From: a virus
UHGV virus genome: UHGV-0351038
Strand: one strand, 5' to 3'
DNA: 34,385 nucleotides
Positions within the stretch are counted from its first letter, which is position 1, and every line of letters begins with the position of its first letter. The notes under the pieces were generated by a model. It ran no database searches, was not told the origin of the DNA, and saw nothing but the letters and a program-made list of their open reading frames with translations. Shown piece by piece: positions 1-15,446 of this stretch. The translations under genes were made by a program, and so were the position numbers.

Positions 1-134
1 CGCCGCCGAGCGGGTTTTTTATTGCGGAATTAATTATGGACCGTTATTATTCTGCTCCCGGCCCTTTAGCTCAGTGGTGAGAGCGAGCGACTCATAATCG
101 CCAGGTCGCTGGTTCAAATCCAGCAAGGGCCACC
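1..134. repeat. Left copy of inverted repeat (terminator-like hairpin remnant + tRNA-Ile), reverse complement of 5389-5522
   Basis: Positions 1-62 are the exact reverse complement of 5461-5522 by manual comparison; tRNA body also matches; identity ends just after the tRNA 3' end (CCT here vs CCA in the other copy). Repeat reaches the window edge so true length is unknown. Confidence 0.85.
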
Positions 135-135
135 T
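60..135 (+). tRNA. tRNA-Ile2-like, anticodon CAU (could be read as tRNA-Met)
   Basis: Cloverleaf by eye: acceptor GGCCCTT / AAGGGCC, D-arm AGCTCAGTGG, anticodon loop CTCATAA, T-arm GGTTCAAATCC; close to recalled E. coli ileX-type sequence. 3' end encoded as CCT, not CCA. Confidence 0.8.
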
Positions 136-326
136 GTCGGATCACCGGAAAGGACCCGTAAAGCGATAATGATTATCATCTACATATCACAACGTGCGTG
201 GAGGCCATCAAACCACGTCAAATAATCAATTATGACGCAGGTATCGTATTAATTGATCTGCATCAACCTAACGTAAAAACAACTTCAGACAATACAAATC
301 AGCGACACTGAATACAGGGCAACCTC

Positions 327-560
327 ATGTCAACGAAGAACAGAACCCGCAGAACAACAACCCGCAACATCCGCTTTCCTAACCAAATGATTGAACAAAT
401 TAACATCGCTCTTGTTCAAAAAGGGTCCGGGAATTTCTCAGCCTGGGTCATTGAAGCCTGCCGCCGGAGACTGTGCTCAGAAAAAAGAGTTTCGCCTGAA
501 GCAAACAAAGAAAAGAGTGACATTACTGAATTGCTCAGAAAACAGGTCAGACCAGATTGA
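327..560 (+). CDS. Arc/Mnt-like ribbon-helix-helix DNA-binding protein (77 aa)
   Basis: N-terminal basic arm then RNIRFPNQMIEQINIALVQKGSGNFSAWVIEACRRRL, which aligns by eye to P22 Arc (NLRWPREVLDLVRKVAEENGRSVNSEIYQRVMESF). ATG at 327; weak RBS. Confidence 0.5.
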   Translation: MSTKNRTRRTTTRNIRFPNQMIEQINIALVQKGSGNFSAWVIEACRRRLCSEKRVSPEANKEKSDITELLRKQVRPD

Positions 561-617
561 AGCAATTTAGATAATCGTGCAGACTACGCCCCCTCATATC
601 ACATGGAAGGTACTACA

Positions 618-1028
618 ATGGCTCAGGTTGCCATTTTTAAACAAATATTCGATAAAGTGCGAAATAATTTAAACTATCACTGGTTTTATTCTGAACTAAA
701 ACGTCACAATGTTTCACATTACATTTACTATTTAGCCACAGAGAATATTCATCTTGTTCTTGAAAACGATAATACGGTTTTAATAAAAGGACAGGGTAAG
801 GTTGTAAATGTAAGATTTTCAAAAAATAAATGCCTTATAGAAGCCACCTTAAAAGGATTCAAATCAGGAGAGTTATCATTTTACGAATACAGGAAAAATC
901 TTGCTACAGCAGGGGTTTTCAGATGGATTACAAATATCCACGAAAACAAAAGGTATTACTATACCTTTGATAATTCATTACTCTTTACTGAGAACATTCA
1001 GAACACTACACAAATATTTCCGCACTAA
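618..1028 (+). CDS. DUF1398-family protein (YbcV-like), about 136 aa
   Basis: ORF 603-1028; second ATG at 618 has a GGAAGG RBS 7 nt upstream. Sequence ([14 protein letters not shown]...[20 protein letters not shown]) recalled as the YbcV family of DLP12-type prophages; lies convergent to the lysis genes as ybcV does. Confidence 0.6.
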
Positions 1029-1335
1029 ATCATAACGTCCGGTTTCTTCCGTGCCAGAACCGGACTCGCTGGCATGATGAAATATGTGTACCCGGTAACC
1101 CCGGTGTGCATCGTTTTTGATTATTCCCCCACACTTGTGCAGAAGGAGTTCCCCGTCAGGCTACAGTCATAATTAATGCAAGAGTACAGCGACGATACAG
1201 CGCACAGAAATAAATCAGGTATCCATTGACTTCACAAAGACGGTGCATAGCATCGACAGGAGTAATTGCGTAAATTGAACTCTTGGCACACTTTAGCCAC
1301 CGGCGAATCTTCAGCGGATTATCCTTGGCCGGTTT

Positions 1336-1800
1336 TTATCTGAGGCATTGCTCTCGAATGTATAGCTGTGCCCCTTCAAGTTGTTTTTGCATTATTATCA
1401 GTCGCGCTCTGAGGGTGAAATAATCCCGTTCAGCGGTGTCTGCCAGTCGGGGGGAGGCTGCATTATCCACGCCGGAGGCGGTGGTGGCTTCACGCACTGA
1501 CTGACAGACTGCTTTGATGTGCAACCGACGACGACCAGCGGCAACATCATCACGCAGAGCATCATTTTCAGCTTTCGCATCAGCTAACTCCTTCGTGTAT
1601 TTTGCATCGAGCGCAGCAACATCACGCTGACGCATCTGCATGTCAGTAATTGCCGCGTTCGCCAGCTTCAGTTCTCTGACATTTTTGTCGCGCTGGGCTT
1701 TGTAGGTAATGGCGTTATCACGGTAATGATTCAGCCACAGACTAAGCGCACCACAGGCCACCAGCAGGGCAATGATGACCACGCACAGTACGCGGTTCAT
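1336..1800 (-). CDS. Rz: Rz inner-membrane spanin subunit (i-spanin)
   Basis: 154 aa, N-terminal TM segment then coiled-coil periplasmic domain; directly downstream of the endolysin; contains an embedded +1-frame lipoprotein ORF. Confidence 0.85.
1398..1580 (-). CDS. Rz1: Rz1 outer-membrane lipoprotein spanin (o-spanin), embedded in Rz
   Basis: 60 aa, signal peptide with lipobox LVVVGC, proline-rich mature region ([15 protein letters not shown]); fully nested in Rz in another frame, the classic Rz/Rz1 arrangement. Confidence 0.8.
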
Positions 1801-2098
1801 TTCACCACCAGCGTATCTGACCGATGAAATAACCGGAGGCCATAATCACAAACACCAGCCAGATAAGAATGAACTTCCAGGTGGATAATTTTTCAGCCAT
1901 CACTCGAATCTCCCGAATCAGTTTGCTAAAATCAAACACACTTTCTCCTTTGACTTTTCCGGAGTCAGGAAACACAAAACCCCGCTTGGTGCCAACAAAC
2001 GGGGTTTTTACTTTTATTCACTTACGTTTCGCCACTTCGCAGGATTTCATGTTATCCGCCCGCGTGGCCATGCCTTATTTTTCAGCAAAATATTCTGC

Positions 2099-2632
2099 TT
2101 ATCTGTCGATACCCCAGCACGCCAGCGCGCTCTCCTGGTCACGACGGGATACCTGACCGTAGCAGTTGTTTGAACGAATACGGCAGTCTCTGCCACCGTC
2201 CTTAATCCACCAGCGAATCGCCTCACACGCTCCCCTGCGATCACCTGCATTAATTCGTTTGTAAAACGTCGACGGGAAACACTTACCGGGACCAATGTTG
2301 TACGGACAGAATGACGCGATCCCCGCTTTCTGGGGTTCGCTCAATGGCACTTTGATGTTTTTCTCCACCCATGCCAGCGCCTTATCACGCTCAATGGCGT
2401 TGACCTGGTCGCATTTTTCCTTCGACAGTTTCATACCGGGAAAAACGGGTTTTCCATCCACCATCGTGGCCCCCCGACAGATGGTCCAGTTGCCGGAACC
2501 ATCGCGGTATGCCGTTGTGTGGTTACCCTCTTTTTCGTCCAGAAACTGGTCAAGTATCTGAGGAGCAGACGCGCCTGCAGCAATCAGCGCCAGAACAGCA
2601 GCTGACAGGCCGTATTTGATTTTTACGCTCAT
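2099..2632 (-). CDS. SAR endolysin (phage lysozyme, GH24-like)
   Basis: 177 aa; N-terminal weakly hydrophobic Gly/Ala-rich segment (SAAVLALIAAGASAPQ) typical of a signal-anchor-release domain, followed by lysozyme-like domain; positioned between holin and Rz. Confidence 0.8.
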   Translation of the reverse strand: MSVKIKYGLSAAVLALIAAGASAPQILDQFLDEKEGNHTTAYRDGSGNWTICRGATMVDGKPVFPGMKLSKEKCDQVNAIERDKALAWVEKNIKVPLSEPQKAGIASFCPYNIGPGKCFPSTFYKRINAGDRRGACEAIRWWIKDGGRDCRIRSNNCYGQVSRRDQESALACWGIDR

Positions 2633-2725
2633 GGATATTTATCAGGATGCTACCAATGAAAGATACTGGAAAGCCAACTGCAAAAAGCTAACAACCTGTA
2701 ATCGAGTTATCAGAACTGTTAATTT

Positions 2726-2986
2726 TTATGGTATACCGCGCCTCTGAACAGGGGCGCGTTTCTGGCAACAGCTCGTCCCCTTCACATAACCCGGCAGCAA
2801 CATCCAGGAAGACCTGGCTGCTGCCTCATAAAACTCCAGCGCGGCACCTTCAACACGGTCCAGCGAGATGTCCAGGTCAAAAATTTCACCGTCAAAGCGT
2901 TTTTTGTCCCGTAACGCTAAAGTTACCGTAACTTTATTCTCAAAATTGCGGATCCCTTTCACAATCAGTTCATAGTTTTGAGTCAT
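2726..2986 (-). CDS. DUF1327-like small lysis-cassette protein (YdfR-like); C-terminus possibly altered
   Basis: 86 aa MTQNYELIVKGIRNFENKVTVTLALRDKKRFDGEIFDLD...; sits between holin and endolysin as ydfR does in Qin-type cassettes; the C-terminal 25 residues look unrelated, Cys/Arg-rich. Confidence 0.5.
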   Translation of the reverse strand: MTQNYELIVKGIRNFENKVTVTLALRDKKRFDGEIFDLDISLDRVEGAALEFYEAAARSSWMLLPGYVKGTSCCQKRAPVQRRGIP

Positions 2987-2990
2987 TGAA

Positions 2991-3206
2991 TTACTCTCCC
3001 CGTGCCGCCTTACGACGGTCCTCTCTGATTTTGAAATACAGGTTAGTCAGATATGTCAGCAGCCCAAACAGCAGACTCCCCAGCACGCCTATTGCCGCCC
3101 ACTGAGACGGGGAAACCCTGTCCAGCAACTGCAGGAACCAGTAGCCCGTTCCCACCGCTGACGTAGTGTATGACACACCTGTTGTGATTTTTTCCATCTG
3201 GTCCAT
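2991..3206 (-). CDS. Class II holin / pinholin (phage 21 S-like, 71 aa) with dual-start motif
   Basis: Track ORF 2991-3311 starts at a GTG; the in-frame MDQMEK start at 3206 gives a 71-aa protein with two TM segments and charged C-terminus ([13 protein letters not shown]). Met1 and Met4 form a dual-start motif. Pairs logically with the SAR endolysin. Confidence 0.75.
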
Positions 3207-3513
3207 ACCCCGTCTCCCATTATCCGGAAGCTGACAACAATAAAAAAGCCACCAGTTAACTACTGATGGCTCTGATAACTCATGCAAGCGTCTCAGACGA
3301 TCCACTGACACTATCGGTGAGTTTAACGATACCTTCCATTTGACTGGCTCACTTTTTATGATGATGCCGGTGCATTTATCTCCAGCACCAGACTTTCTAT
3401 CTCAACGCCATACGTTGCATTTTTGGTAATATCCGTCAGCGTCAGTGCATTTAGTCCCACTGCCAGACTGTCTTTTATGGCCTGGAATGCCGGGCCAGTA
3501 CGATGACGTAGTA

Positions 3514-3717
3514 TCACTCCGGCTCAGTTGCACCGCTGACCACCACATCACCTTCTGCTGCAATCGCCTGCATCAGGGTATAAGGGGTTATGGCCACCGG
3601 ACTACCAAACGGCTGCCAGCCCTCTTTCAGTTTATGTGTCAGCTTTTCCGCAAGATCTGACGGCGGCGCCGCCCTGACAACATCATAGTGTTTAAATGCC
3701 ATGGTTCTTTCCACCAT
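3514..3717 (-). CDS. DUF1737-family small prophage protein
   Basis: 67 aa MVERTMAFKHYDVVRAAPPSDLAEKL...; recalled as a conserved small protein upstream of holins in lambdoid prophages. Confidence 0.55.
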   Translation of the reverse strand: MVERTMAFKHYDVVRAAPPSDLAEKLTHKLKEGWQPFGSPVAITPYTLMQAIAAEGDVVVSGATEPE

Positions 3718-3962
3718 CTGAAAAATAATTCTTTAAAATGCCTGACATGTAATACAGAAAAAAACACAAAACCATACCTTAAATAAAAACCTGATTATCA
3801 AGCAGATATGCATGGATAAACTACAAGACGAGATATAAACCACCCTGTATTTAAATAAACAATAAACAACATCAGAAAAATAATTCTGCTCTATGGTTTA
3901 ATTCAAAAATATCATTTATACTTTTCAGAACATCACCAGCAAGGCATAAACAAGGAAAGTAA

Positions 3963-4298
3963 ATGAAGTGGATTGTGATTGATACAGTTATCCAGCCATC
4001 ATGCGGAATATCTTTTTCAGTCATATGGAGTAAAATAAAATTAATAATCTGGTATCAATCGGATGCTTTCTTACCTCCTGAAAGTATATTTACACTGACT
4101 CACACAGGCATCATGCTCAATAACAAAGTGCTGCCTGTAACCATTTACAACGTAGTACCATTCAATAAAACATTCTGGAATTTAATCAAAAACAGCCAGG
4201 AATGCCCTACAAATACAGATAACGTATTGAATGAATGCTTTAATAACCGTTGCACTCTGCAAATATGTCCTTATGGACTAAAACAACAAAGTCCATAA
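3963..4298 (+). CDS. Hypothetical protein (111 aa) in AT-rich cargo segment
   Basis: ATG preceded by AAGGAAAG RBS; Cys-containing, no recognisable family; lies antisense to the late operon in a visibly AT-rich stretch. Confidence 0.3.
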
Positions 4299-4314
4299 GG
4301 AGTTTACTCACATC

Positions 4315-4354
4315 TGACAAAATCAATATAAACAGCCCCTCCGGAGAGGGGCTG
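4315..4354 (-). terminator. Intrinsic terminator-like hairpin (9-bp stem CAGCCCCTC/GAGGGGCTG, loop CGGA) followed by U-rich tract on minus strand
   Basis: Perfect 9-bp inverted repeat at 4333-4354; on the minus strand it is followed by TTTATATTGATTTT. Confidence 0.45.
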
Positions 4355-4745
4355 GAGAGTGGCGCTATGTGCCATTGCATGGTGCCGGGTGCCTCCCGGT
4401 GAATTCAGTACCAGCACCTGAATCCGCGATTATCCCATATACCTACTCGCTGATTGCCCCACCGCACAGGGGGATTCACCATGCCAGTTTCTTTTAACAA
4501 ACTCCCCGCAAACCAGACAACAGTCAACCGCCTGAATTGTGAAGTATTTAAAAATTTCTCCCGCTAACTGATACCCGGCTAACAGTCTGGCGTTTTCTTT
4601 TTCAGCAACGGGAAAGCAACAACCACCACACCCGCCACCAGCACACCGTCAGCCAGCACTGACATTATCCGGCTGCTGCAATGCCATTCACAAAAACAGT
4701 AAGCAATCACTTTTTACCGTAACAGGTGATAATCCAGATATGTAT

Positions 4746-5099
4746 CTACCCCAGATGAGTAATCCGAAGTTCATCCATACCACAGGTCCTGGCTATTCTG
4801 TTGTACTCCTGAACAAGAGCAAATAATTCTGAATTAGCAACCATGAACTCATCGCAAACCCTCTGTATAGCATCACTATTCAGAATAATAACGTCTCTTC
4901 CCGAAAGACGATCAGGAGTACAGAACAAAACTGTCAAACGGCTGAAGGCCTTTGCTCGTGCTGCATTGACTATATCAATACGCTGCCTAAGGATGAAACA
5001 CCCCGACGCCTCATCAATATTCACTCTACCCACACCATATGAATGATAAATATTTAATGCTGAAAAAACCATTAGACCGTATAACAAATATTCAATCAA
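4746..5099 (-). CDS. Hypothetical protein (117 aa; start uncertain, TTG at 5099 or ATG 27 nt downstream)
   Basis: ORF only; AT-rich; no family recognised. Confidence 0.25.
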   Translation of the reverse strand: MIEYLLYGLMVFSALNIYHSYGVGRVNIDEASGCFILRQRIDIVNAARAKAFSRLTVLFCTPDRLSGRDVIILNSDAIQRVCDEFMVANSELFALVQEYNRIARTCGMDELRITHLG

Positions 5100-5209
5100 T
5101 ACTTAACAGAACTTTTATTTTTGACAAACATATAATATTTTCAACAATATCCTGAGCCAGGTATATTTCAGTATAAGGCTCTGCCGGAAGGAATCTGGAA
5201 GAATGAATA

Positions 5210-5286
5210 TGGCGCGCTGTACTGGATTCGAACCAGTGACCGATTGCTTAGAAGGCAATTGCTCTGTCCGGCTGAGCTAACAACGC
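5210..5286 (-). tRNA. tRNA-Arg, anticodon UCU (phage argN/argO-like)
   Basis: Reverse complement folds as tRNA: acceptor GCGTTGT / ACAGCGC, anticodon loop CTTCTAA, T-arm GGTTCGAATCC, CCA encoded. Confidence 0.8.
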
Positions 5287-5387
5287 TGAATACCGATAAT
5301 GGACCGCCATCGGGGACCCGCCCCCCGCACCAACAACCCTGTTATCGTGTCGTCTGCTCTTCCTGATAAGCTAATGGCGGTTTGTGA

Positions 5388-5463
5388 TGGTGGCCCTTGC
5401 TGGATTTGAACCAGCGACCTGGCGATTATGAGTCGCTCGCTCTCACCACTGAGCTAAAGGGCC
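5388..5463 (-). tRNA. tRNA-Ile2-like, anticodon CAU (phage ileZ-like); CCA encoded
   Basis: Reverse complement identical to the tRNA at 60-132 and continues into an encoded CCA; lies downstream of Q as in lambdoid late regions. Confidence 0.8.
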
Positions 5464-5522
5464 GGGAGCAGAATAATAACGGTCCATAATTAATTCCGCA
5501 ATAAAAAACCCGCTCGGCGGCG
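5389..5522. repeat. Right copy of inverted repeat (tRNA-Ile + terminator-like hairpin), reverse complement of 1-134
   Basis: See left copy; manual base-by-base comparison. Confidence 0.85.
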
Positions 5523-5525
5523 GGT
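5501..5525 (-). terminator. tR'-like intrinsic terminator between Q and the tRNAs
   Basis: Minus-strand RNA CCCGCCGCCGAGCGGG followed by TTTTTT; about 80 bp downstream of the Q stop. Confidence 0.45.
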
Positions 5526-5606
5526 TGTAGAAACTCTTCTAACGTCAGGCATAAAACGCCCATCATTATGACGAATTTACCACAGATTCCGGAAAAATCA
5601 ACCTTG

Positions 5607-6428
5607 TTACCTAGTTACCTTTTTTAACTGCCGCTCAGCCCATGCTTCTTCAATATCAAACCGGGTCACCAGCGCATCATAGAATTTCTTAACTGTTTTT
5701 TCCCATGACGCGCGTGTTATCTGGTTTGTCACCTCGCATATAGCATTAAATGCCTCCGTTGATGGTAGTCTTTCATAGCCACGACCACCACAACGCTGGC
5801 AGTCTCTGATAACAGGCATACCACGTTTTACCGACTCTTCACGATGAATGGCGACACCACGCCCACGGCAATCCTTACAGGCGGTGGAAACCTCACCCTT
5901 TCCGCCACACTCCGGACAGGCAACTTTTACCACCTCCCTGACTTTTTTCCATTCTTCCCAGTAAGACGGATACACACCTTTCGTACACTTTGCCCATACC
6001 GGCGGCTTACCATCCGGATACTGGACCTTGTTTGTAAAAACTACGCTTTCAATAAATTTTTCCCCATAGCAACAAGGGCACTGCTTTTTACTCGCTGCGC
6101 TGCGGGCATAATCCTCAAAAGCGTACGAAGCCATAATGCGCATCACTAACGGTTTTATTTCTGCCGGAAGTTTTCTCAACGCCGCCACACGATCGCACCG
6201 ACTGAGTGCATAATCTGCCAGTAATTCTGTTGCCCGCGCCCTGTCATTCATACTGATGCCCATTTTCCCCAGGAACGCAGAAAACCCCATCTCAGCCCGA
6301 TTCTGTGTCATGCCCTGCGCGGCCATCACATCAGTGATACTCAGCGCATCTTTTGACGTTGAGGCCGATACATCGGTCAGGCCAGGGGATTTTGGGGAGT
6401 AGTATTTCGGTAAATCTTCCAGTTTCAT
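5607..6428 (-). CDS. Late-gene antiterminator Q (phage 82 / Qin QuuQ-like)
   Basis: 273 aa with multiple CxxC zinc-finger motifs (CPCCYGEKF, CPECGGKG, CKDCRGRG, CQRCGGRG); located between rusA and the tR'/tRNA/lysis region. Confidence 0.8.
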   Translation of the reverse strand: MKLEDLPKYYSPKSPGLTDVSASTSKDALSITDVMAAQGMTQNRAEMGFSAFLGKMGISMNDRARATELLADYALSRCDRVAALRKLPAEIKPLVMRIMASYAFEDYARSAASKKQCPCCYGEKFIESVVFTNKVQYPDGKPPVWAKCTKGVYPSYWEEWKKVREVVKVACPECGGKGEVSTACKDCRGRGVAIHREESVKRGMPVIRDCQRCGGRGYERLPSTEAFNAICEVTNQITRASWEKTVKKFYDALVTRFDIEEAWAERQLKKVTR

Positions 6429-6799
6429 TTTTTGACCTGCTCTTCATGCATTATGGGGTAAATCTTCACCCCCATACGTCCACCAGATACTGGCTGACCA
6501 CGAACGATATTGATTTCATCAAACTGCTCATCGTCCATTAACACTCCCGCATGCGTCAGCGCATCCAGCGGTGCTTTCAGGATATTGTCCAGGTCGCGAC
6601 GACGCTTATCCGGTGGCTCTGCAATCACCTTTATCGCCAGCCTTCCGGACAGGCTTAATTTCAGCCGCTGCTGGCGAACAATAAGCGCCACAGCCCGGCG
6701 ATAACGCTTTCCCTCCTCCGAGATAAAATATGTGCTGCCACGGCGTCGCCAGTAAGTGTTCACCGTCGGCGGGTAAGGTAAAACCAAATCTATGAGCAT
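6425..6799 (-). CDS. rusA: RusA-family Holliday junction resolvase
   Basis: 124 aa MLIDLVLPYPPTVNTYW...DLDNILKAPLDALTHAGVLMDDEQ, matching recalled RusA catalytic-region features; 4-bp overlap with Q. Confidence 0.85.
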   Translation of the reverse strand: MLIDLVLPYPPTVNTYWRRRGSTYFISEEGKRYRRAVALIVRQQRLKLSLSGRLAIKVIAEPPDKRRRDLDNILKAPLDALTHAGVLMDDEQFDEINIVRGQPVSGGRMGVKIYPIMHEEQVKK

Positions 6800-6811
6800 C
6801 AGTCACCTCTT

Positions 6812-7861
6812 TTACCCAAGCACGCCAGTTGCAAAGGCGTGATCAAGAAAACGAAAAATTAAATCAACCTGAGAACCATGCTTTTGTTCGAACGCCAGAG
6901 GATCCGCATGAAGCTCGTTGTGATGCTCCCGACACAGCGGTAGCGTGAAAATATCGTGAGATTTTGTCCCCATTCCGCCCTGACCATGACCAATCAGGTG
7001 ATGGGGATCGTCGGCTGGCTTACCACAACACGCACACGGCTGTGTCTTCACCCAGCGTGTGTATTTCTCGTTAACCCAGCGGCGACGTTTAGGTCGTTTC
7101 ATGAAAGATTCCGGAGACTCAGGATCAACGGCAATGCTGACCACCGTCTTTTCCTGTGGTGGGTTCTGTTGCTGGTGGGCGTGAGGCAGCGGCGCAATAT
7201 TTTTTGTGCGCTGTTTCAGTATGCTGGTGGCTGTCTGCTCTCCCGGTATGATGTCGCTCTCGCGGTAAAGCGAGCGGATTTTCTCCGCCGGTAATCCCAG
7301 TGAGCGGCGTAATACAGCCTCCGGTAGTGCGTCCGCTACCTGATTGCAGACCGCCCACCAGGATAATTCAGCCAGAGATAATTCACGCTCCTGCGTACCG
7401 CTTATTGCGTGACCGATGACGTCAATCATCCATGCTGACAGGTTTTGATGAGCAAGTTGCTCGAGTGATTCGGATGTCTGGTCACGCAGCTGGTTGTCGC
7501 AGTGCCAGCACAACACCATTGCGCCGGTACCATAACGGTGAATGACGGTTTCGCTGTGATGATAATCGCCGTGTGGCCACTGGCAGGATTTAACATGGCG
7601 CAGTAACCAGTCAGACAATGCGCCAGCGCCACCAGCAGCACGAATCACTCGTTCGTCGCTGAAAAATGGCAGTAATGATTTATCCTCCGCCAGCGGCTGG
7701 CGAACGGCAGGAACGACCCCGGACGGCAGATTACGCATGGTTTTCGGTTCCGGCTCCACCAGTACCCGGGTATTGTGGAATACCGGCATGGATTCACTGC
7801 CCGGCTTAACGATCACCAGCCCGAGTTCCGGTACCAGAACAGGTCGAAGTAATACCCGCAC
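6812..7861 (-). CDS. DUF968-family protein (YdfU-like) with C-terminal HNH-like zinc-binding motif
   Basis: 349 aa; C-terminus CACCGKPADDPHHLIGHGQGG...CREHHNELH; start is GTG at 7861, so N-terminus uncertain. Confidence 0.65.
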   Translation of the reverse strand: MRVLLRPVLVPELGLVIVKPGSESMPVFHNTRVLVEPEPKTMRNLPSGVVPAVRQPLAEDKSLLPFFSDERVIRAAGGAGALSDWLLRHVKSCQWPHGDYHHSETVIHRYGTGAMVLCWHCDNQLRDQTSESLEQLAHQNLSAWMIDVIGHAISGTQERELSLAELSWWAVCNQVADALPEAVLRRSLGLPAEKIRSLYRESDIIPGEQTATSILKQRTKNIAPLPHAHQQQNPPQEKTVVSIAVDPESPESFMKRPKRRRWVNEKYTRWVKTQPCACCGKPADDPHHLIGHGQGGMGTKSHDIFTLPLCREHHNELHADPLAFEQKHGSQVDLIFRFLDHAFATGVLG

Positions 7862-7862
7862 G

Positions 7863-8141
7863 TTACCTCCAGATGCGTTGCTGGAATGTGCGGGACAGAC
7901 GCGGTGGGCGTTCGGAGTAAGGAAGCCTGACGGAGATTATCCAGTGACGGTAGTCGAGGCTAAGGGCTTTTTTAACCTCGCATCCGCGCCTGCGGTAACA
8001 CTGAATGAGCCATTCGGCCTGTTCTTCAGTGCATGGGGGATGCTGGTACCAGTCTGACTTAAATGCGTGAGAATACCGCTCGTGCGTGTGGGCAAGAACG
8101 GTCGAATTATCATGTTTGTAATATTTTGCGTTGCGTGCCAT
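7863..8141 (-). CDS. Hypothetical prophage protein (92 aa)
   Basis: ATG start, abuts DUF968 gene; no family recognised. Confidence 0.45.
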   Translation of the reverse strand: MARNAKYYKHDNSTVLAHTHERYSHAFKSDWYQHPPCTEEQAEWLIQCYRRRGCEVKKALSLDYRHWIISVRLPYSERPPRLSRTFQQRIWR

Positions 8142-8207
8142 CGGTTTTCTCCGGTGGCACGGTGTTACTCAGCGGGAGTTCAGCCCCGCGCAAGATTGTA
8201 GATGAGT

Positions 8208-8459
8208 TTATTCTTCTGAAAAAGCAGAAAAGCCAGCTTTTATTCCGATCTCTTTCAATACCTGTAATGAAGTGACAAACTCACCGTCGCGCAAGATAAA
8301 TCCGTCCGTCACTCGGGCATCCACAAAATTAATTAACGCAGCCCCATTTTTTTGCAAACACACAATGCGGTAATGACTAACAATATTTCCATTTTCAACG
8401 CACACAGCATAGAGGCCATCTTCACAAAAAATTTTACGCAGTTCTTCGATGTTCATCAT
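8208..8459 (-). CDS. Hypothetical prophage protein (83 aa)
   Basis: ORF with ATG start; no family recognised. Confidence 0.4.
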   Translation of the reverse strand: MMNIEELRKIFCEDGLYAVCVENGNIVSHYRIVCLQKNGAALINFVDARVTDGFILRDGEFVTSLQVLKEIGIKAGFSAFSEE

Positions 8460-8573
8460 CAGAATCCTTCCGGATAATTAGCTCTCCCCTTTAAGGGACC
8501 ATCCCTCTTATCCCTGCGCGCTACTTAAGTATTTTTGATTCTATTCCGGCACCGTCCAGAACTTCAAATGCGT

Positions 8574-8607
8574 TGAAAATAAAAACAAAAACCCGCCGAA
8601 GCGGGTT
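8574..8607 (-). terminator. Intrinsic terminator downstream of hok
   Basis: 7-bp stem AACCCGC/GCGGGTT with loop CGAA; on the minus strand followed by TTTTTGTTTTT. Confidence 0.6.
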
Positions 8608-8675
8608 AAGTGCGGGTGCGTTGAGGATACCTGCCACATCAGAGGTGGCGAGGGATTTCTCCCTCGCCGGGTCTC

Positions 8676-8831
8676 TTACTCCTCAGGTTCGTAAGCTGTG
8701 AAGACAGCGACCTCCGTCTGGCCGGTTCGGATTCGTACCTCGCAGAGGTCTTTCCTCGTTACCAGTGCCGTCACTATGACGGTTAAACAGATGACGATCA
8801 GGGCGATTAACATCGCCTTTTGCTGCTTCAT
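8676..8831 (-). CDS. hok: Hok/Gef-family type I toxin (51 aa); the longer overlapping frame (to 8888) is mok-like
   Basis: MKQQKAMLIALIVICLTVIVTALVTRKDLCEVRIRTGQTEVAVFTAYEPEE: single TM helix and conserved C-terminal pattern of Hok toxins; track ORF 8676-8888 extends upstream as expected for mok. Confidence 0.8.
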   Translation of the reverse strand: MKQQKAMLIALIVICLTVIVTALVTRKDLCEVRIRTGQTEVAVFTAYEPEE

Positions 8832-9295
8832 AGCCTGCTTCTCCTTGCCTTTCGGCACGTAAGAGGCTAACCTACATGTGTCTAGCATGAAATTGGCCTC
8901 AGATTAATGTTAAGCGTCTTGCAGGACGCGTAATGTTAACTGGGGCTTTTCTCTATCTGCCGTTGGTGTTATGCCCGAGGCAGATAGCCTCAAGCACCCG
9001 CAGCCATTCTACTTAACTACCGTTACCTCGCCAATGTGAAATCAGTCAGAAAGGCGATCCATAAGAACAATAGCAAGACAATAAATCGCCATTACAGCCG
9101 TAATAGCCAGCGCACATTTGAGAACCAGCACCACAACCTCCTGTATTGGACGTACACCAGTCCTGATGAATATGAGGCTGTCTCGTCAGTGATTCAATAC
9201 AACTATTGGGTATAGTTTCTCTGATTTTTTCTGTGGAAATGGGGCTCAACCACTAGTCATTTAATACGCAAAGTCCGATACAAGCTAACCTTCTA

Positions 9296-9319
9296 GTCCG
9301 CTTTGAGCGAAAAGCGGAC
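9296..9319. repeat. Hairpin GTCCGCTTT-GAGCG-AAAGCGGAC downstream of the HAD gene; related to hairpin at 10761-10786
   Basis: 9-bp perfect inverted repeat; shares GTCCGCTT / AAGCGGAC arms with the hairpin upstream of the Nudix gene; no U-tract on either strand. Confidence 0.5.
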
Positions 9320-9379
9320 GTTGGAAGTTTAAAACTCGCGAACTACTCAGCGTCCATTGATGCGTATTGTGTAACGTGA

Positions 9380-10024
9380 TTAACCACAGATGATATTGAA
9401 ACGTTCTCCGGAAATCTTGACCATAATGTCAGACAGTTCGCTGACGGCATGGGCTTCAGATGATCCCAGAGCGTCAGGCTGAACAGCTATTACCGAAGCT
9501 CCACTTGCCAGCCCTGCTTTTATACCCGCAGATGCATCCTCAAATACCACGCATTCACCAGGCTCAAGGCCCAAAGCCAAAGCTGCTTTGATGTAACCCT
9601 CGGGACTTGGTTTTCCCGTCATTACATCTTCTGCACACACCATTACTATGGGTAAGGGGAGATTAGCCGCTTTCATCCTGTTTTCTGCAAGCATTCTGCC
9701 TGCAGAAGTGACAAGTGCCCAGCTATCCGGTGGCAGTTTTGATAAGAGTGCAGCGGCCCCTTTTACTTCAGTAACGCCTTCTGTCATGTTGATTTCAACC
9801 TCTTCGAGTGAGGCCGCGATTTTATTGGTTTTCTCACCTGCACCAATAAAATGCGTCAGTGTATCAATCGTTTGCCGCCCGTGTGCGTAAGCAATCACAG
9901 CCTGAGTATCAAGACCGTATTCTGCACAAAAATCTCTCCAGACGCTTTCCACTACGGCTGTTGAATCAACCAGCGTACCGTCCATATCGAATAAAAAACC
10001 CTTAGCGTTGAATATCATTGCCAT
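9380..10024 (-). CDS. HAD-superfamily (subfamily IA-like) phosphatase, sugar-phosphatase-like
   Basis: 214 aa; motif I FDMDGTLVDS, later conserved T/S and K, and the acidic motif ...FEDASAGIKAG...; overall resembles YfbT/YniC-type sugar phosphatases. Confidence 0.75.
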   Translation of the reverse strand: MAMIFNAKGFLFDMDGTLVDSTAVVESVWRDFCAEYGLDTQAVIAYAHGRQTIDTLTHFIGAGEKTNKIAASLEEVEINMTEGVTEVKGAAALLSKLPPDSWALVTSAGRMLAENRMKAANLPLPIVMVCAEDVMTGKPSPEGYIKAALALGLEPGECVVFEDASAGIKAGLASGASVIAVQPDALGSSEAHAVSELSDIMVKISGERFNIICG

Positions 10025-10047
10025 TCCTTAATGGTTGCAGAAGAAAG

Positions 10048-10686
10048 TTAATCAAACCATGTTTTTTCATCACCTTTCGCTACTCTCAGGCTGACAGCAA
10101 TCTGCTCAGGCACAATTCTTGAAAGCGACAATTCAGGCAGGTCGTTGACATCAAAAAAATCAGCATCGAGTGACTCATGGCTGATTGACAGGCTGCCACC
10201 TACTTCTTCACAGAGAAAAATCAGCTTGTAAACATGCCAGGGTAAAGGCGGATGGCCGTGAAGATTACGATCCCAAACTCCCAATAGTTTAGTCACTCTG
10301 ACTTTTAATCCGGTTTCTTCTTCGACTTCTCGACGCACAGCTTCAGAAGGTGTATCTCCAACATCTGCCCATCCGCCAGGAAGACTCCATAATCCATCTG
10401 CAGCCTCTTTCACCATCAGAATACGATTATTACGCAGGATAAACGCACGCACATCTGTTTTGGGCGTCGCGTAACCCGTTTCCGATACATGAAACAAATC
10501 ATTGCGGCTAATATCAAACTGCGAACTCAGCAGTCCAGCGGCAATTTCACGCAAGGCTTCATAGCGTTCCTTGTCAAAGACGTCTTTTGAATAGGTCAGG
10601 CCTGACTGCGCGAGGGCCTTTAGTCTCTGGGCAACAAAAATAAGCTTTTCTTGGGTCAACACTTCAGACATGTTTTTCATCTTCAT
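10048..10686 (-). CDS. Nudix hydrolase with N-terminal extension domain
   Basis: 212 aa; Nudix box GGWADVGDTPSEAVRREVEEETGL (GX5EX7REUXEEXGU) at residues about 104-127, preceded by an about 80-aa N-terminal domain; 23-bp gap to the HAD gene, so probably one operon. Confidence 0.8.
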   Translation of the reverse strand: MKMKNMSEVLTQEKLIFVAQRLKALAQSGLTYSKDVFDKERYEALREIAAGLLSSQFDISRNDLFHVSETGYATPKTDVRAFILRNNRILMVKEAADGLWSLPGGWADVGDTPSEAVRREVEEETGLKVRVTKLLGVWDRNLHGHPPLPWHVYKLIFLCEEVGGSLSISHESLDADFFDVNDLPELSLSRIVPEQIAVSLRVAKGDEKTWFD

Positions 10687-10760
10687 TTATGTATTCAGAG
10701 TTCCTGTTAAGGATACTGCTCAATTCAATGAAGAATAACAAATGCATCTGGCACCTGCTA

Positions 10761-10786
10761 TGTCCGCTTCTGGCACAAAGCGGACA
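10761..10786. repeat. Hairpin TGTCCGCT-(10 nt)-AGCGGACA upstream of the Nudix gene; related to hairpin at 9296-9319
   Basis: 8-bp inverted repeat sharing sequence with the hairpin downstream of the HAD gene. Confidence 0.5.
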
Positions 10787-10882
10787 ACCACGCCAGATCT
10801 ACCCTGTGCCATGAAAAATGAGAATGTCAATTCACTCCTGAACTAATGCTTTTTAATCTAGTAACGTCTAAAATACCTAACA

Positions 10883-11284
10883 TTATCCCTGATAAAATGC
10901 CAGTATGCGCTGCATAACTTCACTCATCCGGCACTCGCGACAGATTATGTTTAGGCGACTGTCGTAGCGACGTATTTCTCCATCAGGTAACGACCAGATA
11001 AGGTCCGGATCAACCACAGCTGTTTTCTTCACCTTTGCCCTCGATAGTTTTTTGCGGGCGTTTTGCCAGTCCTTACGCGCCTGTTCAGACGGGAATAACC
11101 CGTAGCCGGAGTTGTATACATCGCCACTGGCTACCAGCTCTCTGGCAAGAACGCTCATCAGATATCTAGTCGCACCTGTTTTAGCTTCCAGTTGCCGTAA
11201 CGTCTCACGACCGCTCTGGCGCACGAGTTCCACCACCTGCCCTTTAATTTTTTCCCGCTCTTCTTGTGTAAAAACTTTTGCCAC
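10883..11284 (-). CDS. Hypothetical protein (133 aa), possible winged-helix DNA-binding fold
   Basis: GTG start with strong AAGGGGGA RBS; no family recognised. Confidence 0.45.
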   Translation of the reverse strand: MAKVFTQEEREKIKGQVVELVRQSGRETLRQLEAKTGATRYLMSVLARELVASGDVYNSGYGLFPSEQARKDWQNARKKLSRAKVKKTAVVDPDLIWSLPDGEIRRYDSRLNIICRECRMSEVMQRILAFYQG

Positions 11285-11324
11285 AAGTCCCCCTTAAAAT
11301 TACCTCATGACCTGAAATCAAAAC

Positions 11325-12290
11325 TTATCCTCTGAAACCAGGCGGAATTTCTGTATCCGGTTCAGAAATATGATTCACACAACGCTGTACAGGTGAACGT
11401 CCCAGGCGGATGACCAGTTCGTCCCATTTTTCGCGGAGTTTTGACGGGCTCATGATGTTTTTTACCCAGAATGGATCCCGCTGTACCCGACCAAACATTT
11501 CGCAAATTTGTCTGTGGCTTCTGCCATCCAGCATCCGCATTGTGCGCACGTCATTGGCCCAGGCTGTCCAGTTAGGCTCTTTTGGTCGCATGATCTCTCC
11601 ATCGTCGCTGGCAGCCTGTTCGTAAAGGTTCACGATCCGCCCCCAAATCCACTGCGCACACGCCAAATCCTCCCTGCTACCCCACTGGCGTTTTTTCACA
11701 CTAAACACAACCGCGTCGGGGTTCCGGGTTAAAAAATCCTGTTCAGTCGTCTGCGGGTCCGGTTGCGAAGCTTCCGGACGAAAAGTGTTTTTATTCTCTG
11801 TAGTAATCTCTGTTGTATTCTCTGTAAGATCATCAGGCCATTTTGACCCGATGACATTGGGTCGTTTTGAACCAATGGAGCGTTTCATTTTGACCTCTTC
11901 CATCGTGTCATTTTGACCTGATGGAGCGGCGCATTTTGAACCGATGGATTCGTTCAATTTGCCACCATCTAAAAGCTCGCTCCCATAGTTGATCGTGTAG
12001 AAATTGGTCATATCGCGCTTTGATTTATTGAGCTTTTCACAACGCAAAAGCCCCTGCGTTTTCAGACTTGCAAACGCGCGTTTTAACGTTGACTCTGACC
12101 AGAATGGGAACTGTTCCAGCCATTGTTCCGTTGTGTTATAAATCCAGCGAACACCATCACATTCCATACCGGAGTTGGTATCTCTCAACCAGTAGTGCAG
12201 TTGTTGCAAAACAATGGCTTCGTTTAAGCCGATTTTCATTGCCAGCTGCGTGTTTATAACCAGTGGGCGTTCAGCAAAAAGAAGACTCAT
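11325..12290 (-). CDS. Phage replication initiation protein (lambda O-like organiser) containing an internal iteron array
   Basis: Track ORF to 12344 starts at TTG; ATG at 12290 preferred. Direct DNA repeats inside the gene map to repeated peptide motifs (SIGSK..., VIGSKWPDD), as in lambda O/ori. Family assignment from position and architecture only. Confidence 0.55.
   Translation of the reverse strand: MSLLFAERPLVINTQLAMKIGLNEAIVLQQLHYWLRDTNSGMECDGVRWIYNTTEQWLEQFPFWSESTLKRAFASLKTQGLLRCEKLNKSKRDMTNFYTINYGSELLDGGKLNESIGSKCAAPSGQNDTMEEVKMKRSIGSKRPNVIGSKWPDDLTENTTEITTENKNTFRPEASQPDPQTTEQDFLTRNPDAVVFSVKKRQWGSREDLACAQWIWGRIVNLYEQAASDDGEIMRPKEPNWTAWANDVRTMRMLDGRSHRQICEMFGRVQRDPFWVKNIMSPSKLREKWDELVIRLGRSPVQRCVNHISEPDTEIPPGFRG
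11838..11955. repeat. Iteron-like direct repeats (about 5 copies, roughly 23-bp period, core CATTTTGA(A/C)C(C/T)GATGGA) inside the replication gene: candidate origin
   Basis: Seen directly: cattttgacccgatgac / gttttgaaccaatggag / cattttgacctcttcc / cattttgacctgatggag / cattttgaaccgatggat. Confidence 0.6.
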
Positions 12291-12780
12291 AATTCCATCC
12301 AGCTTTTTGTTGGTATTGCTGTCGATACGCAAGCTTGAAAGCAATTGCTTTTTCTATAAGTTCGTCAGTTTCACGATCTACAACGGCAGGATCTGCAAAA
12401 AGCAGTCCAGATTCCACCACATCGCCATATTCTTTATTTAACCCGGCGATCATGTACGTAATACTTTTTTCACGATACAACCTGAAATCACTAATCCGGA
12501 TAGCCTCCATAATTGCAGGCACTAGCGCTGTGAACTTTTCACGCTTATCCCTGGTGTCGATAGCCTTCCAGCGTTCGAATATCTTCACTCGATTAACGCT
12601 AAGCGCTCGCTGATCAACCGCGCCACCTTCATATGTGACACGCTGAACATCGATGTTCGGGCGCTCTTTCAAAGCCCAGAATGCTTCAGTGATTAATATC
12701 GTCGCCTGCTCCTGTGTCATTCCTGGTCGACATATCCAGGCATCCAGAGCCTCACGAGCCTGTTCAGGAGTGATTTTCAT
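12271..12780 (-). CDS. Hypothetical protein (169 aa) at the YdaT position of Rac-like early operons
   Basis: ATG start; follows the cro-like gene with a short overlap; no motif recognised. Confidence 0.45.
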   Translation of the reverse strand: MKITPEQAREALDAWICRPGMTQEQATILITEAFWALKERPNIDVQRVTYEGGAVDQRALSVNRVKIFERWKAIDTRDKREKFTALVPAIMEAIRISDFRLYREKSITYMIAGLNKEYGDVVESGLLFADPAVVDRETDELIEKAIAFKLAYRQQYQQKAGWNYESSFC

Positions 12781-12991
12781 TGTTCAACCGCCCCGTCCGC
12801 TTCGTCTTACGATATTCGTCATAAACTTTGGGATCATACTGAAGCTCCCCGCCAGATGCCTCCTGTAGACGCATCGCGCGACCTTCAGGAACCAGTATCC
12901 CCCAGGCAGCAACACTTGCCAGTCTCACTCCTGCGGCATTGGCAAGCTTTGTTTTGCTGCCAAAAAAAGTAATTGCGTCAACTTTAAGCAT
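12764..12991 (-). CDS. Cro/YdaS-like HTH DNA-binding protein
   Basis: About 75 aa with motif TKLANAAGVRLASVAAWG typical of Cro/YdaS-type HTH; divergent from the repressor gene. ATG at 12991 (track start 12994 is TTG). Confidence 0.65.
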   Translation of the reverse strand: MLKVDAITFFGSKTKLANAAGVRLASVAAWGILVPEGRAMRLQEASGGELQYDPKVYDEYRKTKRTGRLNNENHS

Positions 12992-13004
12992 CAAAGCCCC
13001 CTCT

Positions 13005-13022
13005 TGTTAGACTTTTCTAACA
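13005..13022. promoter_or_regulatory. Operator-like palindrome TGTTAGA-CTTT-TCTAACA between cro-like and repressor genes (OR-like)
   Basis: Perfect 7-bp inverted repeat in the 80-bp divergent intergenic region; the same half-site recurs at 13515-13534. Confidence 0.5.
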
Positions 13023-13071
13023 TTATTGTGCGCGGGATACCTAAGTCAAGAAAAATTAGAATTACCTAACT

Positions 13072-13479: not shown

Positions 13480-13514
13480 CATTCTTTTCAAGTGATTAGT
13501 TGCGCCCACTCTTT

Positions 13515-13534
13515 TTGTTAGACCAACCTAACAA
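13515..13534. promoter_or_regulatory. Second operator-like palindrome TTGTTAGA-CCAA-CCTAACAA (OL-like), with a degenerate copy near 13552-13568
   Basis: Shares TGTTAG/CTAACA half-sites with the 13005-13022 site; sits at the head of the plus-strand operon (small ORFs, kil, recE-like, xis, int). Confidence 0.45.
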
Positions 13535-13647
13535 AAAACACTTGCCTCTCATGTTAGGTTATTCTAAATTACTTTCCATCAAGACACCGCACGGTGTTCT
13601 CAGCAAACAGTTCCGCTACCCCGGCGTTAAGGGGAAATGAGGTCAGC

Positions 13648-13803: not shown

Positions 13804-13804
13804 T

Positions 13805-15323: not shown

Positions 15324-15446
15324 GCAGTAATAAAATAACTGCCACAATACGACATTCAGCTTAATGAATACATCAGATTTGATTCTTATATGCCAGCAAT
15401 GGCAGGGATTTGTTCACCCTTAAATCTGTAATGAGGTTAAAACAAA

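What the first reader, a model, noticed from the sequence alone, without database searches (positions are those of the whole stretch)
137..1028. Arc-like RHH protein followed by a DUF1398 protein: candidate regulator-effector or toxin-antitoxin-like pair
A 77-aa protein that aligns by eye to the P22 Arc repressor fold sits 42 bp (to 603) or 57 bp (to 618) upstream of a DUF1398 (YbcV-like) gene on the same strand. The leader carries several palindromes (GATAATGATTATC at 165-177, ATAATCAATTAT at 222-233, TTGATCTGCATCAA at 253-266). RHH proteins are often antitoxins or autorepressors of small operons, and the function of DUF1398 is not known to me.
Basis: partly seen in the sequence, partly recalled or inferred. 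Interest (0 to 1): 0.5.

Follow-up and report, generated by a model that had tools for sequence, protein, structure and literature searches.

The report
Known prophage gene pair ynfO–ydfO
This is the already-annotated ynfO–ydfO gene pair from the right end of lambda-like E. coli prophages; the two genes are separate modules that sit side by side, not a toxin–antitoxin pair, and the main upstream palindrome is a known binding site for the host iron regulator Fur.

Summary
There is a 77-aa ORF at 327-560, a DUF1398 ORF at 603/618-1028, and the three palindromes lie at the stated coordinates. The pair is E. coli K-12 ynfO-ydfO (Qin prophage): Pfam DUF3950 / NCBIfam YlcI_YnfO_N, followed by DUF1398 (PDB 2HH8). 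Bases 132-1300 are 100% identical to many E. coli prophages.

The toxin-antitoxin or dedicated regulator-effector reading is not supported:
- 153 phage genomes carry the DUF3950 domain, but only 43 carry DUF1398.
- All 24 distant DUF1398 loci lack DUF3950.
- ydfO is a 31% GC island next to a 45-48% GC ynfO.
- The YnfO tail is swapped at a mosaic breakpoint after residue 50.

The palindrome at 165-177 is the centre of the published "nohA" Fur site (gel shift; Chen 2007). The three palindromes are absent from phages that carry the same YnfO domain next to an HNH-type packaging module.

Function remains unknown. Interest is low.

The parts
1..134 (+). Context only: a perfect inverted copy of window 5389-5522 (terminator plus tRNA with CAU anticodon, downstream of Q). 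It replaces cosN and the Nu1 gene, which normally lie upstream of ynfO.
   Evidence: the repeat finder I1, 134 nt, 100%. ARAGORN and Rfam tRNA. 100% match to the tRNA-Ile locus of E. coli prophages on the opposite strand. No complete E. coli genome spans the junction.
135..326 (+). Leader of ynfO. It is homologous to the extreme right end of the lambda chromosome, the cos-proximal DNA. It starts 4 bp inside the mature right end, and cosN itself is absent here.
   Evidence: Alignment A4 with K-12 Qin, DLP12 and other prophages, where AGGTCGCCGCCC (cosN) directly precedes CGTAACCTGTCGG. Match to lambda 46867-48498. No Rfam family and no unusual RNA fold, z = -0.06.
165..183 (.). Fur box. The palindrome GATAATGATTATC (165-177) lies within a 16/19 match to the Fur consensus. 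It is identical to the K-12 'nohA' Fur site.
   Evidence: 16/19 match; 0 of 2000 shuffles reach it. Chen et al. 2007 report a 22.3-bit site at 1634624, confirmed by gel shift and FURTA-selected. The coordinate maps to L003 5601, the centre of the same palindrome, 156 bp upstream of the ynfO ATG. The palindrome is conserved at -156 in 73 of 80 viral loci.
216..237 (.). Imperfect 22-bp palindrome CGTCAAATAATCAATTATGACG. Function unknown.
   Evidence: Conserved in lambda-cos-type leaders. Absent from HNH-type phages with the same protein.
253..266 (.). Palindrome TTGATCTGCATCAA (5-4-5). Function unknown.
   Evidence: Same conservation pattern as the element at 216-237.
327..560 (+). ynfO-type gene: a 77-aa YlcI/YnfO (DUF3950) protein. 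Residues 1-50 form a near-invariant, basic, probably ribbon-helix-helix domain. Residues 51-77 form a lineage-specific tail.
618..1028 (+). ydfO-type gene: a 136-aa DUF1398 protein (141 aa if read from ATG603). It forms an AT-rich island of 31% GC.
   Evidence: PF07166, E = 3e-43. Match to PDB 2HH8 YdfO, E = 1e-69. RefSeq annotation of the identical DNA. GC profile.

Best explanation
The region is the ynfO-ydfO segment of the non-essential right end of a lambda-type prophage. It lies between the cos site and the Rz lysis gene and is read antisense to the late operon.

ynfO encodes a small protein under strong purifying selection. Its first 50 residues probably form a ribbon-helix-helix DNA-binding dimer. 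This domain is the constant feature of the lysis/packaging boundary in lambdoid phages.

ydfO is a separate, AT-rich cargo gene ('moron') of the DUF1398 family. Mosaic recombination placed it directly behind ynfO in this lineage.

The pair is probably co-transcribed rightwards from the cos-proximal leader. The dominant palindrome there is a host Fur operator, so expression in the lysogen is most likely repressed by Fe-Fur and released under iron limitation.

What is shown and what is inferred:
- Shown: gene identities, family membership, position, independence of the two genes, and identity of the palindrome with a Fur site that binds Fur in vitro.
- Inferred: the RHH fold, co-transcription, a promoter overlapping the Fur box (candidate AGGACC-17-TATCAT at 151-179), and iron control of ynfO rather than of the divergent Nu1 gene.

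The biochemical functions of both proteins remain unknown.
For: Identity:
- Family hits.
- 100% DNA identity to annotated E. coli prophages.
- K-12 Qin ynfO-ydfO and DLP12 ylcI/ybcV.

Position:
- Alignment to the lambda right end and cosN.
- Nu1 lies upstream on the opposite strand in 77 of 80 close loci.

Real protein: pN/pS about 0.1.

RHH:
- In-register hhalign with Arc and NikR, P about 0.008, against 0.27-0.42 for non-RHH controls.
- AF2 gives two helices after an extended basic arm.

Independence of the two genes:
- 153 phage records carry the DUF3950 domain; 43 carry DUF1398.
- BP-4795 and loci L112-L115 carry DUF3950 alone, between Rz and the packaging genes.
- All 24 distant DUF1398 loci lack DUF3950.
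- GC content is 31% for ydfO against 45-48% for ynfO.
- The tail is swapped after residue 50.

Fur:
- 16/19 match to the consensus; 0 of 2000 shuffles reach it.
- Published gel shift and FURTA selection for the identical K-12 19-mer.
- The palindrome is conserved at -156 in 73 of 80 loci.

Transcription of the family: the ybcW-ylcI convergent overlap is seen in at least 50% of K-12 RNA-seq samples.
Against: - No sigma-70 promoter on the + strand passed the consensus scan in 1-1400. The candidate promoter is weak in its -35 element.
- The literature assigns the Fur site to nohA/nohB (the Nu1 homologues), not to ynfO. I found no expression data showing an iron or Fur response of ynfO or ydfO.
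- ybcV went down, not up, under copper stress, a condition that raised iron-uptake genes.
- In this window the normal upstream context (cosN, Nu1) is replaced by an inverted tRNA copy. Local transcription could therefore differ from that of other prophages.
Confidence: 0.62

Rival explanations
1. Toxin-antitoxin-like pair. YnfO is an RHH antitoxin and autorepressor, and YdfO (DUF1398) is its toxin.
For: - Gene order and sizes resemble a type II module.
- Within the close lineage the pair is stable, in 79 of 80 loci.
Against: - DUF1398 stands alone in all 24 distant loci and as ycgX in E. coli.
- At least 110 of 153 DUF3950-carrying phage genomes have no DUF1398.
- In lambda and DLP12 an opposite-strand gene, ybcW, separates the two.
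- The gap is 57 bp, and GC content is 31% against 45-48%.
- There is no significant match to any PADLOC model or to a toxin family.
- ydfO was cloned, purified and solved (2HH8).
- ydfO is called essential only by TraDIS, not by Keio. That is the opposite of what a toxin gene should show.
Confidence: 0.05
2. Dedicated regulator-effector operon. YnfO binds the leader palindromes at 216-237 and/or 253-266 and autoregulates ynfO-ydfO.
For: - The fold is RHH-like.
- The leader has an excess of inverted repeats, P about 0.02.
- The repeats are conserved in all lambda-cos-type leaders.
- Small RHH proteins commonly autoregulate.
Against: - The same domain, about 88-90% identical and with an invariant RNIRFP strand, occurs in HNH-type phages. 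Homology there begins exactly at the ATG, the intergenic region is 41 bp, and none of the three palindromes is present within 1 mismatch (4 for the extended form).
- Most carriers have no DUF1398 to regulate.
- Leader conservation is equally well explained by its being part of the conserved cos module.
Confidence: 0.18
3. The Fur box and the other leader repeats serve the packaging side, not ynfO. Possibilities are a Fur-controlled promoter for the divergent Nu1/nohA gene, or an architectural role near cosQ. ynfO-ydfO would then be driven by another signal.
For: - The literature assigns the site to nohA/nohB.
- The palindrome gives a -10-like GATAAT on both strands (read).
- The leader co-varies with the lambda-type cos/Nu1 module, not with the ynfO coding sequence.
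- ydfO responds to an ionic liquid, and ybcV to PdhR, in ways unrelated to iron.
Against: - The site is on the ynfO side of cosN. It lies 156 bp from the ynfO ATG and 233 bp from nohA.
- In a phage, Nu1 is expressed from the late transcript and needs no promoter of its own (established lambda biology).
- ynfO was not yet annotated when the site was assigned to nohA.
Confidence: 0.25

Closest known systems
E. coli K-12 Qin prophage ynfO (b4533) - ydfO (b1549)
   Same: - Same two genes, order, strand, spacing and leader.
- The Fur 19-mer is identical.
- YdfO aligns with the window protein over 140 residues (E = 1e-69), and the YnfO N-terminal 50 residues differ at one position.
   Different: - In K-12 the upstream neighbour is cosN plus nohA.
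- In this window the upstream neighbour is an inverted copy of a tRNA region.
Phage lambda right end (unannotated DUF3950 ORF at 48157-48303 complement, lambdap79/YbcW, lambdap78/DUF1398, bor) and K-12 DLP12 ylcI-ybcW-ybcV-borD
   Same: - Homologous leader.
- Same DUF3950 N-terminal domain, 98% identical.
- DUF1398 lies downstream on the same strand, 76% identical.
   Different: - Lambda and DLP12 have an extra opposite-strand gene (ybcW/p79) between the two, and bor after them.
- The YnfO tail differs.
- This window has neither ybcW nor bor.
P22 Arc / Mnt and the wider ribbon-helix-helix superfamily, including RHH antitoxins such as MazE6
   Same: - Small size and a basic N-terminal arm.
- Ungapped alignment of NIRFP with Arc NLRWP, and of the G-x-x...S helix turn.
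- Two-helix core.
   Different: - No statistically significant sequence or structure match.
- No Pfam RHH family is hit.
- No cognate operator or partner gene has been identified.
- Dimerisation and DNA binding are untested.
Lambda bor / lom-type 'morons' (prophage-expressed cargo genes embedded antisense in, or beside, the late region)
   Same: - Position between Rz and cos, antisense to late transcription.
- AT-rich composition.
- Variable presence among related phages.
- Host-regulator control is plausible.
   Different: - No phenotype is known for DUF1398.
- No signal peptide or lipobox was noted, and the 'envelope' and 'head protein' labels are unsupported.

Membership tests
YlcI/YnfO family (Pfam PF13132 DUF3950; NCBIfam NF041551) | Score above the curated cut-off of the family models | tested here: met
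   PF13132: 72.8 bits against a cut-off of 25. NF041551: 35.2 bits against 30. phrog_949: E = 6e-33.
YlcI/YnfO family (Pfam PF13132 DUF3950; NCBIfam NF041551) | Position at the lysis/packaging boundary of a lambdoid genome, divergent from the small terminase or HNH gene | tested here: inconclusive
   The Rz side and the cos-proximal leader are present. The packaging side is replaced by an inverted tRNA copy in this window.
DUF1398 (Pfam PF07166; YdfO/YbcV/YcgX) | Score above the Pfam gathering threshold, and full-length similarity to the solved member | tested here: met
   147 bits against a cut-off of 22. Match to 2HH8_A at E = 1.4e-69 over residues 1-140.
Ribbon-helix-helix (Arc/MetJ) superfamily | Significant sequence or profile similarity to an RHH family | tested here: inconclusive
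   The alignment is in register, but P is only 0.008-0.009 and hhalign probability is 4.6%. There is no Pfam RHH hit at E <= 1 and no PDB sequence hit.
Ribbon-helix-helix (Arc/MetJ) superfamily | Strand-helix-helix fold matching solved RHH domains | tested here: inconclusive
Ribbon-helix-helix (Arc/MetJ) superfamily | Obligate dimer that inserts a two-stranded sheet into the DNA major groove | not testable with these tools
   Only single-chain prediction was available. There are no binding data.
Type II toxin-antitoxin module | The two genes are inherited together across lineages and contexts | tested here: not met
   153 phage records carry the DUF3950 domain and 43 carry DUF1398. DUF3950 occurs alone in L112-L116. 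DUF1398 occurs alone in 24 of 24 distant loci.
Type II toxin-antitoxin module | The second protein belongs to a known toxin family or is growth-inhibitory | tested here: inconclusive
   No toxin family is hit in Pfam or PADLOC. The only hits are sub-threshold: HEPN_AbiA_CTD at E = 0.014 and Csx23 at E = 0.025. Toxicity itself cannot be tested here.
Fur operator (Fur box) | Close match to the 19-bp consensus GATAATGATAATCATTATC, beyond chance | tested here: met
   16/19 match at 165-183 on the minus strand; 0 of 2000 dinucleotide shuffles reach 16.
Fur operator (Fur box) | Experimental Fur binding to this sequence | tested here: met
   Taken from the literature, not measured here. The identical 19-mer in K-12 is the 'nohA' site: 22.3 bits, gel shift with 150 nM Fur, selected in vivo by FURTA (PMC2189734).
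Fur operator (Fur box) | Fur-dependent transcription of the adjacent gene (ynfO) | not tested
   No expression data for ynfO or ydfO against iron or fur were found.

The most novel reading that the evidence does not exclude
YnfO is a conserved ribbon-helix-helix regulator that marks the lysis/packaging boundary of lambdoid phages whatever the packaging type. In lambda-type prophages it would be switched on by iron starvation through the cos-proximal Fur operator. It would then act in trans on a conserved phage or host target, for example antirepressor genes, late-transcript read-through or in-situ cos cleavage. This would give prophages an iron-sensing input that has not been described.
Probability: 0.1. 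Interest if true: 0.55.

Novelty: already known. Interest (0 to 1): 0.2.

Why it matters
It matters little as a discovery. Both genes are annotated in E. coli K-12, occur in most E. coli genomes, and one has a solved structure.

Three modest points remain:
1. The DUF3950 domain is under strong purifying selection and sits at the same genome boundary in phages with unrelated packaging modules, yet it is unannotated in the lambda reference and has no known function.
2. One of the strongest Fur sites in the K-12 genome, historically assigned to nohA/nohB, lies closer to and on the same side of cos as ynfO/ylcI. The assignment may deserve re-examination.
3. The only functional claim in the literature for YdfO (oxidative-stress protection) appears to be a confusion with YfdO.

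Tried and rejected
- PDB sequence searches with YnfO alone and as a profile found only noise.
- Foldseek of the YnfO model against PDB gave nothing significant. The best compact hits were TCP domains at E = 8.
- Profile-profile comparison with a verified Arc family alignment gave the right register but only 4.6% probability, because both alignments are shallow (Neff 1.6).
- AlphaFold of the DUF1398 protein was submitted without an alignment and failed (pLDDT 46). No fold search was run on it, so I cannot say what 2HH8 resembles.
- A profile of 12 DUF1398 proteins against PDB found only 2HH8.
- The PADLOC defence models gave no hit for YnfO and only a sub-threshold hit (Csx23, E = 0.025) for the DUF1398 protein.
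- The first genome-wide locus scan failed because the alignment was too diverse. It was repeated with 4 sequences.
- The viral-contig scan with YnfO returned only near-identical loci. It was useful for checking the stability of the arrangement but not for diversity.
- Literature searches for a Fur or iron response of ydfO or ybcV found none. The Fur ChIP-exo paper is not held.
- I considered that the conserved 150 bp might be conserved as DNA for packaging rather than as protein. I rejected this because pS is about 0.5 while pN is about 0.05.
- I considered a leader RNA element and rejected it: no Rfam hit and fold z = -0.06.
- I searched for the 134/135 junction in complete E. coli genomes, IMG/VR and metagenome contigs. 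It is absent from all three.

Full report
**1. Observation**

ORF 327-560 (+) encodes 77 aa. ORF 603-1028 (+) encodes 141 aa, or 136 aa from ATG618. The three palindromes lie at exactly 165-177, 222-233 and 253-266.

The 192-bp leader holds 5 short inverted repeats (arm >=5, loop <=6), against a mean of 1.07 in dinucleotide shuffles, P = 0.017. ATG618 is the better start for the second gene:
- GGAAGG lies 7 nt upstream of it.
- RefSeq annotates the 411-nt CDS on identical DNA.
- Homologues align from query residue 6.

**2. Identity**

The small protein is a YlcI/YnfO family member:
- PF13132 DUF3950, 72.8 bits against a cut-off of 25.
- NF041551, 35.2 bits against 30.
- phrog_949.

The second protein is DUF1398: PF07166 at E = 3e-43, and a match to E. 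coli YdfO at E = 1e-69, whose NMR structure is PDB 2HH8.

Bases 132-1300 are 100% identical to prophages in many E. coli genomes, where they carry these same annotations. 4873 of 5426 complete genomes hold a match.

In K-12 the same pair is ynfO-ydfO of the Qin prophage. In DLP12 the order is ylcI, ybcW (opposite strand), ybcV, borD. Phage lambda has the same layout at its right end, and its DUF3950 ORF (48157-48303, complement) is not annotated in the reference record.

**3. Position**

Aligning the leader with other prophages shows that window 135-326 is the extreme right end of the lambdoid chromosome. In Qin, DLP12 and other loci, the cohesive-end sequence AGGTCGCCGCCC and then the Nu1-type gene (nohA/nohD) lie immediately to the left. 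To the right come Rz, the lysozyme and the holin, on the opposite strand. The pair therefore sits between cos and the lysis cassette, antisense to late transcription, in the region known for optional cargo such as bor.

**4. Is the small ORF a real protein, and is it RHH?**

Across diverged alleles the first 50 codons show pS about 0.5 and pN about 0.05. The protein, not just the DNA, is conserved. Residues 1-50 are almost invariant. The tail after residue 50 changes completely between lineages, which marks a mosaic breakpoint inside the gene.

The evidence for an RHH fold is as follows.
- hhalign places YnfO 14-33 on Arc 11-30 and YnfO 15-52 on NikR 6-43. It gives the same register for Mnt, RelB and CopG.
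- P is about 0.008 for Arc and NikR, against 0.27-0.42 for the non-RHH controls Cro, Rop and Fis.
- My recalled Arc sequence was verified against the database.
- A profile-profile comparison with the Arc family kept the register but reached only 4.6% probability.
- AlphaFold gives an extended basic arm followed by helices 19-32 and 34-54, with core pLDDT about 80.
- Foldseek found nothing significant.

I rate an RHH fold at about 65%: likely, not shown.

**5. Are the two genes a functional pair?**

The evidence says no.
- In the INPHARED phage collection, 153 records encode the DUF3950 domain but only 43 encode DUF1398. All Stx-converting phages in the list have the former without the latter.
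- In BP-4795 the DUF3950 gene stands alone between Rz and an HNH-terminase module.
- L112-L115 show it followed by unrelated small genes or a TonB_C gene.
- DUF1398 is a narrow family: 196 clusters at E <= 0.001 among 1.84 billion representatives.
- All 24 distant genomic copies lack any DUF3950 ORF within 4 kb. These include Kluyvera, Pseudocitrobacter, Raoultella, Salmonella diarizonae and E. coli ycgX next to bluR.
- ydfO is a 31% GC island beside a 45-48% GC ynfO and 52-55% GC lysis genes.
- Neither protein reaches significance against any PADLOC model.

Within the close lineage the arrangement is stable: 79 of 80 loci at 97-100% identity. That reflects relatedness, not coupling.

**6. The palindromes**

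The strongest palindrome, GATAATGATTATC, sits within a 16/19 match to the Fur consensus. None of 2000 shuffles reaches 16.

Chen et al. 2007 list a 22.3-bit Fur site 'nohA' at U00096.2 coordinate 1634624, confirmed by gel shift and previously selected in vivo. They list a 25.3-bit site 'nohB' in DLP12 as well. Both rank among the ten strongest Fur clusters in the genome.

Shifting by the 1976-bp offset between genome versions puts the nohA site at L003 position 5601. That is the centre of the same palindrome, and the 19-mer is identical to the window's.

The site is 156 bp upstream of the ynfO ATG, on the ynfO side of cosN, and 233 bp from nohA. It is conserved at -156 in 73 of 80 related loci.

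A candidate promoter overlaps it: AGGACC, 17 bp, then TATCAT (151-179). This is my reading only; the consensus scan reported no + strand promoter.

The other two palindromes are conserved in lambda-cos-type leaders. All three are absent from phages that carry the same YnfO domain next to an HNH-type module. In those phages homology starts exactly at the ATG and the intergenic region is only 41 bp. They are therefore poor candidates for a conserved YnfO operator.

The leader matches no Rfam family and has no unusual RNA fold.

**7. What the literature says about function**

Very little.
- ydfO mRNA rises about 100-fold after an ionic-liquid shock.
- ybcV and ybcW fall about ten-fold in a pdhR mutant.
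- ybcV was among the strongly down-regulated genes under copper stress.
- The ybcW-ylcI pair forms a convergent transcriptional overlap in most K-12 RNA-seq data sets, which shows that ylcI is transcribed.
- ydfO is called 'essential' only by TraDIS, not by the Keio collection.
- Frederix et al. state that YdfO over-expression protects against oxidative stress and cite Wang et al. 2010. That paper names YfdK, YfdO and YfdS of CPS-53 and does not mention ydfO. This looks like a gene-name confusion.
- The 'head protein' label from PHROG 413, now carried in RefSeq lambda, and the older 'putative envelope protein' label have no visible support.

**8. Most likely mechanism**

ynfO encodes a small, probably RHH, DNA-binding protein. 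It is the constant occupant of the lysis/packaging boundary. ydfO is independent AT-rich cargo placed behind it in this lineage.

The two are probably co-transcribed. They share a strand, the gap is 57 bp, and no terminator was predicted between them. Transcription would start in a leader whose main control element is a host Fur operator, so expression is expected in iron-poor lysogens.

Confidence in this package is about 0.6. The weakest links are the promoter and the Fur-to-ynfO assignment. Rivals:
- Toxin-antitoxin pair: 0.05.
- Dedicated YnfO-operated operon: 0.18.
- The Fur site and repeats belong to the packaging side: 0.25.

**9. Novelty and verdict**

Interest is low (0.2).

The most novel reading still open is that YnfO is an iron-gated trans-acting prophage regulator. 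I put that at about 10%.

**10. Context oddity**

Window 1-134 is a perfect inverted copy of 5389-5522, the terminator and CAU tRNA downstream of Q. The junction lies 4 bp inside the mature lambda right end and shares ACC as microhomology. So cosN and Nu1, which normally precede ynfO, are missing here.

Window 132-19609 is otherwise one contiguous prophage right arm, 99.6% identical to E. coli strains. The junction is absent from 5426 complete E. coli genomes, IMG/VR and JGI metagenome contigs. It is either a private fold-back rearrangement at a cos-cut end or an assembly artefact. Either way, it means that local upstream transcription may differ from that in other prophages.

Noticed in passing
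window 1-134 and 5389-5522: A perfect 134-nt inverted repeat runs to the first base of the window. It is a copy of the terminator plus the CAU-anticodon tRNA found downstream of Q, and it is fused 4 bp inside the mature lambda right end with ACC microhomology. It replaces cosN and Nu1. The junction is absent from complete E. coli genomes, IMG/VR and metagenome contigs. It is either a fold-back rearrangement at a cos-cut end or an assembly artefact.
   Followed up: partly
window 19949-19967 and 20044-23493: A second strong Fur box (17/19, GTTAATGATAATCATTTTC) lies just upstream of a four-gene Mn/Fe ABC transporter operon of the sitABCD type. The ATPase matches PRK15056 above its cut-off. The operon starts about 430 bp beyond position 19609, where the contiguous prophage match ends.
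   Followed up: partly
window 132-19609: This is one contiguous prophage right arm, from the cos-proximal end to about 50 bp past a 431-aa tyrosine integrase. It is 99.6% identical to E. coli SCU-125, CU37RT-2, AR_0017 and others. Beyond it lie the sit operon and then tail-fibre and J-type genes on the minus strand.
   Followed up: partly
window 4324-4513 (-), 8826-8999 (-), 14871-14922 (+), 3963-4298 (+): Rfam hits above gathering score: STnc100 sRNA, sok antitoxin RNA (a hok/sok locus) and DicF. There is also an IraM anti-adapter ORF (NF007393, 162 bits).
   Followed up: no
protein database hits P0020-P0119: Dozens of contigs of about 3.5 kb from ENA, and YlcI proteins labelled Staphylococcus aureus, Bacillus or a spider, carry the lambda-type YlcI. 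They look like contamination by lambda control DNA, since the size fits a 3.5-kb lambda right-end amplicon.
   Followed up: no
literature: PMC4077768 versus PMC3105296: The claim that YdfO over-expression increases oxidative-stress resistance cites a paper that actually reports YfdK, YfdO and YfdS of prophage CPS-53 and does not mention ydfO. This is probably a gene-name mix-up that could spread into annotations.
   Followed up: yes
lambda NC_001416 47048-47452 and 48157-48303 (complement): RefSeq and PHROG 413 label the DUF1398 gene (lambdap78) 'head protein' although it lies outside the head cluster, and no supporting evidence was seen. The DUF3950 ORF next to cos is not annotated at all in the lambda reference.
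   Followed up: partly
L116 (phage BP-4795) 2094-4281: In Stx-type phages the solitary DUF3950 gene lies next to an HNH endonuclease gene, with a 41-bp divergent intergenic region, and close to an antirepressor (ant) gene inserted between R and Rz. YlcI/YnfO genes are also reported beside AntA/AntB antirepressors in capsid-forming PICIs of Enterobacter (PMC13612085). A link between this RHH-like protein and antirepressors, as with Arc/Mnt and ant in P22, was not tested.
   Followed up: no
P0122: A 177-aa database protein fuses the YnfO C-terminal part to YdfO. It is probably a deletion or mis-call joining the two ORFs, not a natural fusion.
   Followed up: no
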